The position numbers and the translations under genes are program-made. Shown piece after piece: positions 29,330 through 33,454 of a DNA stretch of 64,000 nucleotides (within the stretch, counting starts at the first letter, position 1; each line of letters opens with the position of its first letter). A model generated the notes under the pieces. The model did no database searches. It saw nothing but the letters and a program-made list of their open reading frames with translations, and was not told the origin of the DNA. Source of the DNA: the human T2T-CHM13v2.0 reference genome, Homo sapiens; NCBI RefSeq assembly GCF_009914755.1, contig NC_060943.1. The stretch is one strand, 5' to 3'.

Positions 29330-29450
29330 TCACCACCACCACTTGTCTTCAAGGTCATTAAAATCCCACGCACACTTGAGTTTCAGACAGAGCTCCTTCT
29401 GTGAGGTCTGTATCTCCTCTCTCACTACATTGTGCAGGTCTTTTTGAAGC
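29330..29450 (-). CDS. NLRP13: NLRP13 distal terminal exon (exon 12); phase-2 frame LQKDLHNVVREEIQTSQKELCLKLKCAWDFNDLEDKWWW*
   Basis: ttattttgcag|G acceptor, 39-codon open frame with an NLRP-type Trp-rich end, downstream AATAAA. Confidence 0.7.
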
Positions 29451-29504
29451 CTGCAAAATAAGAAGTACTGAAGTTTAGAAGCAGTGAAGAAGTTTAGAAG
29501 TAAT

Positions 29505-30330
29505 TTTTAATTTTTAAGGTTCAGGGGAACACGTACAGGTTTGTTACATGGGTCTACTGTGTGGCATGAAGTTTGGTGTGTGAATGATCCCATCACCCAG
29601 GTAGTGAGTATAGCACCTGAAAGTACTTTAACCCTTGCCTCCTTCCTACTCTCCTCCTCCTAGTAGTCCCGTGTCTTGTCAACAAATATATGTGTATATA
29701 TGTATATACACACACATACACACACACACATATTCATATACATACACACATACACATATACGTATTGTTTGAGACGCAGTGTCACTTTGTCACCCAGGCT
29801 GGAGTGCAGTGGCGTGATCTCGGCTCACTGCACCCTCCACCTCCTGGGCCCCAGCGATTCTCCTGCCTTAGGCTCCTGAATAGCTGGGATTACAGGCGCA
29901 CACCACCACGCCGGCTAATTTTTGTATTTTTAGTAGAGATGGGGTTTCACCATGTTGGCCAGGCTGGTCTCGAACTCCTGACCTCAGGTGATCTGCCCAC
30001 CTCGGCCTCCCAAAGTGCTGGAATTAGAGGCATGAGCCACCATGCCTGGCCTACTGTCACCATCTTTAAATCCACATGTACTGATTGTTTAGCTCCAACT
30101 TGTGAGAACATGTGGTATGTGGTTTTCTGTTCCTGCATTAGTTCACTTAGGCTAATAGCCCTCAGCTGCGTCCATGTTGCCACAAAGGACATGGTTTCAT
30201 TCCTTTTTAGAGCAGTGTAGTACTCCATGGTGTATGTGGACCACATGCATGTGTGTGTTCCTCACAGCACTGTTCACAATAGCATTGACATGGAACCAAC
30301 CTAGGTGCTCATCAACAGCAGACTGGATGG
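29505..30330 (-). mobile_element. 5'-inverted L1 3' fragment with inserted Alu (29768-30052) and a TA/CA microsatellite
   Basis: Antisense L1 3' end to ~30246, then the adjacent upstream L1 segment in the opposite orientation (~30247-30329); gaagcagtgaag on both flanks. Confidence 0.7.
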
Positions 30331-30390
30331 AAGCAGTGAAGTACAGGCAGGGTGCAGTGTAAAGTGGCAAACTGATATAAAGCATAATAA

Positions 30391-30804
30391 AGGTTTAGAC
30401 AAAAGTAATTGCCATTTTTGCCATTAAAAGTAATGGCGGCCAGGCATGGTGGCTCACACCTGTAATCCCAGCACTTTGGGAGGCTGAGGCAGGTGAATTA
30501 CCTGAGGTCGGCAGTTCTAGACCAGCCTGACCAACATGGAGAAACCCCATCTCTACTAAAAATACCAAGTTAGCTGGCTGTGGTGGCACGTGCCTGTAAT
30601 CCAGGCTACTCGGGAGGCTGAGGCAAGAGAATCGCTTGAACCTGGGAGGCGGAGGGTGCGGTGAGCCAAGATCACACCATTGCACTCCTGTGTGGGCAAC
30701 AAGAGTGAAACTCCATCTCAAAAAAAAAGTAATGGCAAAAACCATTACTTTAAAACCACTGCATTAAAAGTAATAGCAAACACAATTACTTTGGCACCTA
30801 CCTA
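30391..30804. mobile_element. MADE1-like Mariner MITE (expanded variant) interrupted by an Alu (~30438-30728)
   Basis: TIR remnants caaaagtaattgc ... caattactttggcacc; aaaagtaatggc flanks the Alu as a TSD. Confidence 0.8.
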
Positions 30805-31374
30805 CAGAAAGACTAACAAATGAAGGGTAACTTTTGTTTACCCTTCGACTGGGACCTCCCACCACCCTAGCCTTACCCACAGATGTCAGGGAGAAGATTT
30901 GATGGCACGGGAACCCCTTTCCATAGAGAAAAGGCACAACCACAAAGGTAGAGGATGAGAAAACCATGGCGCAGATGACACAAGGGACCTTGTGGGCAGG
31001 CCAGAGTAACTCAGGCCATTTTCACTGTGTATGAATAAATCCAAGTACTTCTCATTAATCTGCATCTAGCAATTTTTGAAAAATAAAATCTGAGCGTTCT
31101 ACAAGAGGAGGCGAGGGTCTGGGCACCCAGTCAGAAGCCCCTTCTGCACACATGCATGATAGACAGCAGAGAAGCTTCATCTTTAACGGTTGCTGTCCCA
31201 GAACCCTTTTTAAAATGCACCACTGAAGTGTGAAGTTGGCAACATCAAATCTTTAAAAGGTGCAGATCGTGACTCACTTCCTAAAGTAGGCAAGGTTCCT
31301 TGGCATCTGGGATGACTTCTGCTGAGATGTACCAGTAACAGCTGTTAACTGCTTACCTTTCTCCATGCCCCAAC

Positions 31375-31672
31375 TTTTTTTTTTTTTTTTTTTTTTGAGA
31401 CAGGGTCTTGCTCTGTTACCCAGGCTGGAGTGCATGATCATGGCTCACTACAGCCTCAAACTCCTGGGTTCAGGCAGTCTTCCCACCTCAGCCTCCCAAG
31501 TTGCTGGGAACACAGGTGTGTGCCACCATGCCAAGCCAATTTTTTAAAATTTTTGTAGAGACAGGATCTGCCTATGTTGCCCATGCTGGTCTTGAACTCC
31601 TGGCCTCAAGTGATCCTCCTGCCTTGGCCTCTCAAAGTGCTGGAATTATAGGCATGAGCAACTGCAGCCAAC
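31375..31672 (-). mobile_element. Alu (AluJ-like)
   Basis: Diverged antisense Alu. Confidence 0.85.
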
Positions 31673-32283
31673 CTGCTTACCTTTCTGATTTCCTCTCAGA
31701 ATACTGAATGGGGTGGAAAGTGTTCTAATTAAATGCTCTTCTCTCAGTGCCTCAAAGGGGCAACATAAAGCTTGGTGCAACCTCAGGGCCTTTGCACATG
31801 CTACTGAAACATCCTCAGTACATTCCACCCTTCATCTCTAGTCACCTCTCATGTTCCCTTCCTGATATAGGGACTCCTCCTTCCAGCCTCCTTGGGACTC
31901 AGGATCAATGGTACCGCCTCTGGCAAGCCCCTTGCTATTCTGGTCACCCTCCTGTCTTATCTCAACCCAGAGTTTCTTTCACAGCATTCATGACAACAGA
32001 GATTGCTTTTATGTCTCAGACCTGTTATCTCCTGGAGGAGAACTCAAGACTCTCAAGGACAAGGCTCATGTCCGTTTGTTTCCCCCCTGTCTACCATGCC
32101 ATGGTGCTTGGCCCAGAGTCGGTATTGAAAAAGAAGCCACAAGTTAATGGCTATGGAGTGACACGTACAGTAGGTACAAGAATGATAAACAGAAGCAGGC
32201 TCTCAAAATACCCAAAAGTCTCCAGGACTGCACCATCCAGTACGGTAGTCATTAGCGACATGTGGCTGTTAAGATTTAATTAG

Positions 32284-32402
32284 TAGGTTGATGCAAAAGT
32301 AATTGCCATTTTTGCCACTAAAAGTGACAGCAAAAACCATTACTTTAAAACCACTGCATTAAAAGTAATAGCAAACACCAAAATTACTTTGTACCAACCT
32401 AA
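32284..32402. mobile_element. MADE1-like Mariner MITE (expanded variant) within a MER3-like element
   Basis: taggttgatgcaaaagtaattgc ... aattactttgtaccaacctaa. Confidence 0.85.
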
Positions 32403-32440
32403 TAAAATTAAAAATTTATATTTATATTAAAATAGGCTGG

Positions 32441-33040
32441 TGGCCAGGAGCAGTGGCTCACGCCTGTAATCGCAGCACTTTGGGAGGCGGGCCAACATGG
32501 TGAAACCCCCGTGTCTACTAAAAGTATGTTAAAAAAAAAAAAAAAAAGAAAGAAAAGAAAAAGAAAATTAGCCAGGCGTAGTGGCATGCACCTGTAGTCC
32601 CAGCTACTGGGAAGGCTGAGCCAAGAGAATCACTTGAACCAGGATGGGGAGGTTGTAGAGAACTGAGATTGCGCCACTGCACTCCAGCCTGGGTGACAGA
32701 GCAAGACTCCATCTCAAAAAAGAAAAGAAAAAACAGTCCGGGCATGGTGGCTCATGCCTGTAATCCCAGCACTTTGAGACGCCGAGGTGGGTGGATCACC
32801 TGAGGTCAGGAGTTCAAGACCAGCCTGGCCACTACGGTGAAACCCCCATCTCTACAAAAATACAAAAATTAGCTGGGCGTGGTGGTGGGTGCCTGTAGCT
32901 CCAGCTACTCGGGAGGCTGAGGCAGGAAAATTGCTTAAACCCGGGAGGTGGAGGTTGCAGTGAATCAAGATGACACAACTGCACTCTAGCCTGGGTGACA
33001 GAGCGAGACACTGTCTCAAAAAAGGTGAAAGAAAAAAGAA
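32441..33040 (+). mobile_element. Two tandem Alus
   Basis: ~32441-32730 (internally deleted) and ~32737-33040. Confidence 0.88.
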
Positions 33041-33279
33041 AACTACTAATTCAGTTCCCAGTCACACTAACCATGTTTCAAGTGCCCAATGATGAGATGC
33101 CGCTCGTGGCTACACAGCAGGTGCACAGCACAGAGATCACTCCCACCCTTACTGGAAGTTCCGTTGGCCTGCATGGCCTGAGGAAGCCGAGTGCAATGGA
33201 AACCTGACACATGCTCTAGAAGCCTAGTCAATCTAGCCTTGTCCCTGTATGTTCTCCCCTGCAGAAAAGTCAGTGAGGT

Positions 33280-33454
33280 TTACCCGAGTTTCTGCAGCCT
33301 GCATGTCGACTTTTTCAAAGCCTTACATAGCATCTTGACACCATCAGTATCCAATTCATTGCCTAGAAGGTTCAGATTGACCAGGCTCTTACTGCTGCTG
33401 AGAACAGAGAAGAGATGCTGGCAGCAAGCAGTTGTCAGATTGCATTTCGCCAAC
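33280..33454 (-). CDS. NLRP13: NLRP13 exon 11 (canonical last coding exon), LRR
   Basis: ccctag|G; LAKCNLTTACCQHLFSVLSSSKSLVNLNLLGNELDTDGVKMLCKALKKSTCRLQKLG*; the TAA overlaps the donor GG|GTAAAC. Confidence 0.93.

What the first reader, a model, noticed from the sequence alone, without database searches (positions are those of the whole stretch)
29330..33327. NLRP13 canonical stop is a read-through 5' splice site; an intact terminal exon lies ~3.8 kb downstream
Seen: exon 11 reaches exactly 171 nt at 33284 and is followed by GTAAAC, so the canonical stop (GG|G TAA) is the start of an unspliced intron. At 29450 an acceptor opens a phase-2 frame LQKDLHNVVREEIQTSQKELCLKLKCAWDFNDLEDKWWW* with AATAAA at 29042-29037. 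Its size matches the NLRP4 capping exon (121 vs 118 nt), and its Trp-rich end resembles the NLRP5/NLRP14 C-termini as I recall them. Splicing 33284->29450 would add a 39-aa C-terminal cap (1082 aa if the canonical protein is 1043 aa). A second donor inside exon 11 (T|GTAAGG at 33327) joins the same exon out of frame (KMLCFKKTCTM*), which fits a 1036-aa isoform I recall. Inference: the annotated isoforms are truncated derivatives and the capped ancestral form is unannotated or being lost.
Basis: partly seen in the sequence, partly recalled or inferred. Interest (0 to 1): 0.8.

Follow-up and report, generated by a model that had tools for sequence, protein, structure and literature searches.

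The report
Human NLRP13 lost C-terminal cap exon
The reference human NLRP13 protein stops inside an unspliced splice site, and the conserved last piece of the protein that other mammals make is still intact 3.8 kb downstream, so the reference protein is probably missing its natural end.

Summary
NLRP13 (minus strand) exon 11 is a 171-nt LRR exon ending at 33284. It is followed by GTAAAC, and the reference stop TAA (33282-33280) is bases +2 to +4 of that donor. The annotated terminal exon (29450-29021) is open in one frame only, the frame that this donor sets. That frame encodes 39 residues ending WDFNDLEDKWWW.

All 24 non-primate NLRP13 entries retrieved (horse, donkey, cats, dogs, meerkat, bear, bat, mole) carry this cap or its first part, 19 of them ending in exactly that tail. 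One macaque model (isoform X3) has it too. The cap aligns to the very C-terminus of solved NLRP5 and NLRP14 and to the ribonuclease inhibitor end. Human NLRP5 has the same exon layout.

A stop inside the donor is generic: 9 of 10 LRR donors in the window would give one if left unspliced. The second donor (33327) sits on a Cys codon found in all 16 primate entries, where the non-primates examined have Trp (TGG). It is therefore a primate novelty that shifts the frame.

Whether human oocytes make the capped 1082-aa protein is not shown. This is an annotation-level finding of moderate interest.

The parts
33284..33454 (-). NLRP13 exon 11 as an ancestral-type 171-nt LRR exon (the reference model extends it to 33280)
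   Evidence: Acceptor ccctag|G at 33454. Length is 171 nt to 33284, in the same phase as the other LRR exons.
33278..33283 (-). Ancestral 5' splice site CGG|GTAAAC; the reference stop TAA (33282-33280) is its bases +2 to +4
   Evidence: U1-pairing proxy -7.6 kcal/mol and 6 of 9 consensus matches. Homologous to the NLRP5 donor TGG|GTAAGT and the NLRP4 donor CGG|GTGAGC.
33321..33327 (-). Primate-born alternative donor T|GTAAGG (exon ends at 33327), built on the Cys codon TGT plus AAG G
   Evidence: The hub table lists exon 33327-33454 in another transcript. All 16 primate entries have Cys here and 13 of 13 tabulated non-primates have Trp.
29451..33283 (-). Intron 11 (3833 nt); retained or unspliced in the reference 1043-aa reading
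   Evidence: It contains no AATAAA. ATTAAA occurs only at 32280 (1000 nt past the stop) and at 29511.
29330..29450 (-). Coding part of the terminal exon in the cap frame: 1 nt completing Gly, 39 codons, then TGA. This is the C-terminal LRR cap with the Trp-rich tail.
29425..29427 (-). TAG stop of the frame-shifted reading used by the 33327 donor (tail CFKKTCTM)
   Evidence: Ape isoform X2 entries end CCKKTCTM, CFRKTCTM and CFRKTCIM.
29021..29329 (-). 3' UTR of the terminal exon, with AATAAA at 29042-29037
   Evidence: and the hub table (exon 29021-29450).

Best explanation
Bases 29450-29330 are the orthologous last coding exon of NLRP13. It encodes the C-terminal cap of the ribonuclease-inhibitor-type LRR domain: a last strand-helix-strand unit followed by a Trp-rich tail, WDFNDLEDKWWW. 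Exon 11 can end in three ways. (i) Splicing from the ancestral donor at 33284 to 29450 gives the capped protein of 1082 aa, which is the form other mammals are annotated with. (ii) Splicing from a donor at 33327, which arose in primates when a Trp codon (TGG) became Cys (TGT), reaches the same acceptor one base out of frame. The result is an 8-residue junk tail and 1036 aa. (iii) With no splicing, the ribosome reads GG-G TAA into the donor and stops, giving 1043 aa, the reference protein. Shown here: the anatomy, the orthology and conservation of the cap frame, the generic nature of the donor stop, and the primate origin of the second donor. Inferred: that the human gene still makes the capped form (my estimate about 0.6), and that the 1043-aa model reflects an unspliced or coding-region-only clone rather than the main product.
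For: Anatomy.

Orthologues: 40 NLRP13 proteins were retrieved. Of these, 20 end in ...WWW: 19 non-primate entries plus macaque X3. Two more carry the tail with a different end (Lycaon ...DKW, Talpa ...WWWPAHH). Three felid isoforms carry only the first part of the cap. So 24 of 24 non-primate entries have the cap or part of it.

Pairwise matches: human cap against cat 22/40 identical, E 3e-13, running to the last residue.

Solved structures: the cat C-terminus aligns end to end with human NLRP14 (9ln6_A, to residue 1504 of 1506) and NLRP5 (9l4l_D, to 1198 of 1200). It aligns to residue 455 of 457 of ribonuclease inhibitor and to 1028 of 1036 of NLRP3.

Paralogue layout: human NLRP5 has a 171-nt exon, donor TGG|GTAAGT, and a cap exon of 133 coding nt in the same phase. 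NLRP4 in the window has the same layout.

Donor stop is generic: 9 of 10 LRR-exon donors in the window begin GTAA, GTGA or GTAG in this phase.

Reference model: its last exon ends exactly at the stop, with no 3' UTR (hub table), and there is no AATAAA in the intron.

Donor quality: the U1 pairing of the ancestral donor is within the gene's range.

Ape substitutions: three substitutions inferred from ape isoform X2 tails all fall on third positions and are synonymous in the cap frame. Under the null, 14 of 54 visible changes would be synonymous, so P is about 0.02-0.04.

Human oocytes: in a long-read study the dominant NLRP13 isoform is an unannotated one (NLRP13-HON-4764, fraction 0.36). The text says ORFs of NLRP13 isoforms from its assemblies are supported by Ribo-seq (PMC13233917, passage and source-data row). 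The structure of that isoform could not be read.
Against: No human transcript or read joining 33284 to 29450 was seen. The only spliced human transcript in the hub table uses 33327.

Twelve of 16 primate entries end at ...LQKLG and three ape entries use the shifted frame; only macaque X3 is capped.

Human and macaque caps differ at 5 of 39 residues (87% identity). That is no better than the whole protein (89-90%) or its last 330 residues (92-93%). By my rough estimate it is close to what neutral drift would give.

An intact 39-codon frame could survive some tens of millions of years without selection.

The novel-isoform label in the oocyte study is also given to NLRP4, 5, 8, 9, 11 and 14, so it may reflect 5' differences.

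The ape test rests on three inferred changes in predicted proteins.

The U1-pairing energy is a crude proxy, and the donor lacks the consensus G at +5 and T at +6.
Confidence: 0.8

Rival explanations
1. The cap is a relic in anthropoid primates. Since the Trp-to-Cys change created the donor at 33327, splicing goes there (shifted frame) or fails. The cap frame is no longer translated, and its intactness in human reflects too little time to decay.
For: The only spliced human transcript in the hub table uses 33327. Three ape isoform X2 models do the same. 15 of 16 primate entries lack the cap. Human-macaque cap divergence is 5 of 39, all in the first 20 residues, about the gene's average or worse. 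The alternative donor has the consensus GTAAG core.
Against: Macaque X3 is modelled with the cap. The last 19 residues are identical in human and macaque, and the last 12 are identical from human to cat, horse and dog. Three of three inferred ape substitutions are synonymous in the cap frame and change the shifted-frame tail. The ancestral donor pairs with U1 better than the new one by the proxy used (-7.6 against -4.8). Similar T|GTGAGG motifs sit at the same offset (128) in two other NLRP13 LRR exons and one NLRP4 exon without being annotated as used. Truncated primate models may simply copy the human reference.
Confidence: 0.3
2. The 1043-aa protein is the real main human product. It would be made from mRNAs that retain intron 11 or end within it, as a regulated cap-less form.
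For: It is the transcript selected in the hub table and the form given for 12 primate entries. All three endings put the stop in the last exon, so none should be a target of nonsense-mediated decay (inference).
Against: The model has no 3' UTR at all (hub table). The intron has no AATAAA, and the nearest ATTAAA is 1000 nt past the stop. The same stop would arise at 9 of 10 LRR donors if unspliced, so it carries no sign of design. All solved relatives keep a cap. The accession listed for NALP13 is from a family-wide cloning series (AY154468, table in PMC2323615). That the RefSeq record derives from it is my recollection.
Confidence: 0.15
3. The open frame in the terminal exon is chance, and the exon is merely 3' UTR.
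For: A 39-codon open frame alone is not rare.
Against: E 2.6e-14 to macaque X3 against 5.77 billion proteins. E 3e-13 to cat and to mole. The tail is identical in 19 non-primate entries. An exhaustive scan of 1.84 billion representatives returned only 3 hits, all ending in the same cap.
Confidence: 0.01

Closest known systems
NLRP13 of non-primate mammals (cat, dog, horse, bat, mole, meerkat, bear) and macaque isoform X3
   Same: Same protein and the same junction ...L(Q/R)KLG | L(E/Q/K)K..., with the same tail WDFNDLEDKWWW.
   Different: Non-primate caps have 40 residues and the primate caps 39. Non-primates have Trp where primates have the Cys codon that carries the second donor. Their DNA could not be examined.
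Human NLRP5 (MATER) terminal exons; solved chain 9l4l_D
   Same: 171-nt penultimate exon, a donor whose read-through also gives GGG TAA, a cap exon in the same phase (133 coding nt), and a Trp-rich end ...DDRYWWKN. NLRP5 is reported as the closest paralogue of NLRP13 (PMC2447171, passage).
   Different: The NLRP5 donor is GTAAGT (-10.3 kcal/mol) and its accepted protein includes the cap. No competing in-exon donor was looked for.
Human NLRP14 C-terminus (9LN6, NLRP14-UHRF1 complex)
   Same: The cat NLRP13 C-terminus aligns to its last residues, which end ...EEDVSWWW.
   Different: Different gene on another chromosome. Mouse NLRP14 chains align only up to the start of the cap.
NLRP4 terminal exon in this window (18808-18925)
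   Same: Same layout...LQVLG, donor CGG|GTGAGC, cap exon of 118 coding nt, same phase. It aligns column for column with the other caps.
   Different: No BLASTP similarity to the NLRP13 cap and no Trp tail.
Ribonuclease inhibitor and NLRP3 LRR modules
   Same: 171-bp exons, each encoding a 28- plus a 29-residue repeat in one frame (PMC10950545, passage). Their C-terminal ends align with the first 25 or so residues of the cap.
   Different: They lack the Trp-rich extension.

Membership tests
Orthologous terminal (cap) exon of NLRP13 | Significant sequence match to the C-terminal end of NLRP13 orthologues, reaching their last residue | tested here: met
   E 2.6e-14 (macaque), 3e-13 (cat, residues 968-1007 of 1007), 3e-13 (mole).
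Orthologous terminal (cap) exon of NLRP13 | The frame is the one set by the donor at the end of the preceding 171-nt exon | tested here: met
   Orthologue junctions read ...KLG|L.K....
Orthologous terminal (cap) exon of NLRP13 | Junction 33284->29450 used in human mRNA | not testable with these tools
   No read data are held. The hub table has no such transcript. The relevant supplement of PMC13233917 could not be read.
C-terminal cap of ribonuclease-inhibitor-type LRR domains (NLRP5/NLRP14/NLRP3/RI) | Aligns with the C-terminal end of solved members | tested here: met
   using the cat orthologue with the preceding repeat. The human 39-mer alone gave no PDB hit and no Pfam family.
C-terminal cap of ribonuclease-inhibitor-type LRR domains (NLRP5/NLRP14/NLRP3/RI) | Folds as a terminal strand-helix-strand packed on the last repeat | not tested
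Stop codon created by read-through of a phase-2 GTRA donor | The stop is bases +2 to +4 of a GT donor in the phase shared by the LRR exons | tested here: met
   9 of 10 LRR donors in the window (6 of 6 in NLRP13, 3 of 4 in NLRP4) give TAA, TGA or TAG. NLRP5 does the same.
Functional 5' splice site (33284) | GT dinucleotide and adequate U1 complementarity | tested here: inconclusive
   GT is present. Consensus match is 6 of 9 and duplex energy -7.6 kcal/mol, within the gene's range. The site lacks +5G and +6T. MaxEnt-type scoring was not available.

The most novel reading that the evidence does not exclude
A single primate substitution (Trp TGG to Cys TGT in the last LRR) planted a second donor 43 nt upstream of the ancestral one. 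Anthropoid oocytes would then make both a capped NLRP13 and a frame-shifted cap-less one. This would be a lineage-specific splicing switch that turns off the Trp-rich C-terminal surface of a maternal-effect NLRP, while the reference 1043-aa protein is an artefact of an unspliced clone.
Probability: 0.3. Interest if true: 0.6.

Novelty: new member of a known kind. Interest (0 to 1): 0.45.

Why it matters
NLRP13 belongs to the oocyte-expressed NLRP group. Two of its relatives, NLRP5 and NLRP14, were recently placed by cryo-EM in the subcortical maternal complex and the cytoplasmic lattices, where LRR domains make contacts (passages of 10.64898/2026.03.30.715201 and PMC13237083). If the reference human protein lacks its natural last 39 residues, several things start from the wrong sequence: structure models, expression constructs, antibodies, proteomics databases, and the reading of variants in the terminal exon, which are now scored as UTR or as a shifted frame. 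The fix is cheap to test with existing oocyte data. The primate-born competing donor also gives a small, clean example of how a missense change can rewire a gene's 3' end.

Tried and rejected
- **The human cap on its own.** It gave no PDB hit and no Pfam family.
- **NLRP13 cap against NLRP4 cap.** BLASTP found nothing, and MAFFT first misplaced the NLRP4 cap. A later local alignment lined them up, but the profile hits to the three human caps in that call are by construction.
- **First cap query.** It was one residue too short and was re-sent with three more bases of the window.
- **Exhaustive representative search.** It returned only three short gene-model fragments carrying the cap.
- **Retrocopy search.** I looked in the human genome for a retrocopy that might preserve the junction. 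The cap matches only itself.
- **Cap relic downstream of NLRP8.** None was found in the last 10 kb (best E 1.3).
- **Literature.** Four searches (146 papers hold 'NLRP13') produced no listing that describes the NLRP13 C-terminus. I read only passages of eight papers, not whole texts.
- **Oocyte long-read paper.** Supplementary Data (xlsx) and Supplementary Fig. 4F of PMC13233917 may show the very isoform, but could not be read.
- **Weak-donor idea.** I considered it and could not support it.
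Full report
**What is in the sequence**

NLRP13 lies on the minus strand. Exon 11 starts after ccctag at 33454. Its 171st base is 33284, and the next six bases are GTAAAC. The reading frame runs ...CTC GG|G TAA, so the reference stop (33282-33280) is bases +2 to +4 of a GT donor.

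About 3.8 kb downstream (intron of 3833 nt), the annotated terminal exon of the second RefSeq transcript begins after ttattttgcag at 29450. Its first base completes the Gly codon. It then reads LQKDLHNVVREEIQTSQKELCLKLKCAWDFNDLEDKWWW followed by TGA (29332-29330). That is 39 residues and 121 coding nt. The other two frames stop after 7 and 30 codons. AATAAA is at 29042-29037, about 16 nt before the annotated end at 29021.

The second donor, TAT|GTAAGG with the exon ending at 33327, joined to the same acceptor gives ...KMLCFKKTCTM and TAG at 29427-29425. The arithmetic holds. The human entry is 1043 aa, the capped form would be 1082 aa, and the shifted form 1036 aa.

**Is the cap frame real coding sequence?**

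I searched a 5.77-billion-protein collection three times:
- with the human cap;
- with the last 74 residues of the macaque hit;
- with the last 60 residues of the cat hit.

Together these returned 40 NLRP13 entries (tails printed):
- **20 end in ...WWW.** These are macaque isoform X3, horse, donkey, 11 felid entries, a bat (Glossophaga), polar bear, meerkat, and three dog or dingo entries.
- **2 carry the tail with another end.** Lycaon ends ...DKW and the mole Talpa ends ...WWWPAHH.
- **3 felid isoforms carry only the first part of the cap.** Two end ...SFLRVK and one continues differently.
- **12 end at ...LQKLG.** Eleven are named anthropoid primates, including human, and one is an unnamed entry.
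- **3 ape isoform X2 entries** end in the shifted frame.

So 24 of 24 non-primate entries have the cap or part of it, against 1 of 16 primate entries. The human 39-mer matches cat residues 968-1007 of 1007 (22/40 identical, E 3e-13). It matches the mole likewise (20/40). The last 12 residues are identical from human to cat, horse and dog.

An exhaustive scan of 1.84 billion cluster representatives gave just three hits. All are short gene-model fragments ending in the same cap, and their similarity begins right at the acceptor. Chance is excluded.

**What the cap is**

With the preceding repeat attached, the cat C-terminus aligns end to end with two solved chains:
- human NLRP14 (9ln6_A, to residue 1504 of 1506, tail ...EEDVSWWW; the entry is identified in the data-availability passage of PMC13237083);
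- NLRP5 (9l4l_D, to 1198 of 1200, tail ...DDRYWW).

Its first 25 or so cap residues align with the C-terminal end of ribonuclease inhibitor (to 455 of 457) and of NLRP3 (to 1028 of 1036). The mouse-length NLRP14 chains, however, align only up to the start of the cap.

The gene layout is shared. In the window's own genome, NLRP5 has a 171-nt penultimate exon, a donor TGG|GTAAGT, and a cap exon of 133 coding nt in the same phase. NLRP4 in the window has ...LQVLG, donor CGG|GTGAGC and a cap exon of 118 coding nt.

The 171-bp, 28+29-residue exon module is described for NLRP3 (PMC10950545, passage). By inference, the reference human NLRP13 ends in the first strand of a repeat whose remainder is missing.

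**The stop in the donor is generic**

All LRR exons here share one phase: two bases of a codon at the exon end. Among the 10 LRR-exon donors in the window, 9 begin GTAA, GTGA or GTAG. These would give an immediate stop if unspliced: 6 of 6 in NLRP13 and 3 of 4 in NLRP4. NLRP5 does the same. The reference stop therefore has no special feature. It is what any unspliced LRR exon would give.

The reference transcript's last exon ends exactly at the stop, with no 3' UTR (hub table). Intron 11 has no AATAAA, and the nearest ATTAAA lies 1000 nt past the stop. The accession listed for NALP13 belongs to a family-wide series (AY154468, table in PMC2323615). That the RefSeq record derives from it is my recollection.

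**The second donor is a primate novelty**

The GT of the 33327 donor is the second and third base of a Cys codon (TGT) followed by AAG G. All 16 primate entries have Cys at this position. All 13 non-primates tabulated have Trp. The prints show the same LWK in the other non-primate entries, except P0037, whose printed tail does not reach it. Trp is only TGG, so those species cannot have a GT there.

The change predates the split of Old World and New World monkeys, since Saimiri and Callithrix have Cys. As a control, similar T|GTGAGG motifs sit at the same offset (128) in two other NLRP13 LRR exons and one NLRP4 exon without being annotated as used. The exon 11 site matches the consensus better (GTAAG core, 6 of 9).

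**Is the ancestral donor still fit?**

Both donors match the consensus at 6 of 9 positions. By duplex energy with the U1 5' end (a recalled 11-base motif and a crude proxy), the values are:

| Donor | Duplex energy (kcal/mol) |
|---|---|
| Ancestral donor (33284) | -7.6 |
| Nine other NLRP13 donors in the window | -5.6 to -10.4 |
| New donor (33327) | -4.8 |

The ancestral donor does lack +5G and +6T, which all the other LRR donors of the gene have. I cannot say it is weak, and I cannot say it is used.

**Is the cap still under selection in our lineage?**

*For.* The three ape isoform X2 tails differ from human at three places. Each is explained by one base change: window 29447 in Pongo, 29444 in the two gibbons, and 29432 in Nomascus. 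All three fall on third positions and are synonymous in the cap frame, while altering the shifted-frame tail. Of the 54 single-base changes that would be visible this way, 14 are synonymous in the cap frame. That gives P of about 0.017, or about 0.04 if transitions and transversions are weighted apart. Human and macaque also share the last 19 cap residues.

*Against.* Human and macaque differ at 5 of 39 cap residues (87% identity), compared with 89-90% for the whole protein and 92-93% for its last 330 residues. By my rough reckoning, a 39-codon frame could stay open for tens of millions of years without selection. The evidence leans towards continued use but does not settle it.

**Human transcripts**

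A single-oocyte long-read study says that ORFs of isoforms 'originating from NLRP13' are supported by Ribo-seq. Its source data list an unannotated isoform (NLRP13-HON-4764, fraction 0.36) as the dominant one (PMC13233917, passage and table row). The structure of that isoform is in files I could not read. The same 'novel' label is given to six other NLRP genes, so this is a lead and not support.

Four literature searches produced no listing that describes the NLRP13 C-terminus. I read passages only. PMC2735741 notes that NLRP13 is missing in rodents. PMC2447171 places it next to NLRP5.

**Verdict**

The terminal exon is the conserved cap exon of NLRP13, and the reference stop is a read-through of the ancestral donor. 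Both are close to certain. The human gene retains everything needed to make the capped 1082-aa protein, and no such human form is annotated in the hub table or found in the protein collection.

Whether it is made, and in what share against the primate-born shifted form and the unspliced form, is open. I put about 0.6 on appreciable capped product and about 0.3 on the relic reading. This is a new, unannotated form of a known gene in a known family: useful to annotators and to those working on maternal NLRPs, but not a new kind of biology.

Noticed in passing
window 33284, 36104, 39368, 42271, 45129, 47900 (NLRP13) and 5199, 8322, 14491, 16289 (NLRP4): Nine of ten LRR-exon donors begin GTAA, GTGA or GTAG in the shared phase, so any unspliced LRR exon would end in an immediate stop. 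Only NLRP4 14491 (GTGG) would not.
   Followed up: yes
window 62294-62362, 61917-61985, 61241-61306 (minus strand): Three tandem 66-69-nt exons with nearly identical flanks (mean column identity 91% over about 150 nt) encode acidic 22-23-residue repeats between the pyrin domain and the NACHT domain. Human has 3 such repeats, macaque 4, Saimiri 2, dog 1, and cat, horse and mole 0 by a motif count.
   Followed up: partly
L002 733-904 (G000:C19:59078732-59078903), 3' part of NLRP8: An NLRP8 LRR exon measures 170 nt to a TTT|GTAAGT donor, one short of the family's 171. Read in frame it ends ...KKREEVIL with TAA overlapping that donor. No cap-like frame was found in the 10 kb examined (best E 1.3). 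NLRP8 may be a relative that really lost its cap.
   Followed up: partly
window 39368-39538, 36104-36271; NLRP4 16119-16289: The LC(E)A codons of the LRR consensus create T|GTGAGG donor-like motifs at offset 128 of several LRR exons, the same offset as the annotated alternative donor of exon 11.
   Followed up: partly
proteins P0037-P0039 (felids), P0031 (polar bear), P0036 (Lycaon): Some felid models end after the first 26 cap residues (...SFLRVK) or continue into another tail. The polar bear model has a different junction before the shared tail, and the Lycaon model stops two Trp short. These are probably model differences rather than biology.
   Followed up: no
window 45129-45293 and 36104-36271: Two NLRP13 LRR exons are 165 and 168 nt instead of 171. 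The phase is kept.
   Followed up: no
window 33280-33454: In the hub table the selected NLRP13 transcript ends exactly at its stop codon, so it has no 3' UTR. This fits a model built from a coding-region-only clone.
   Followed up: partly
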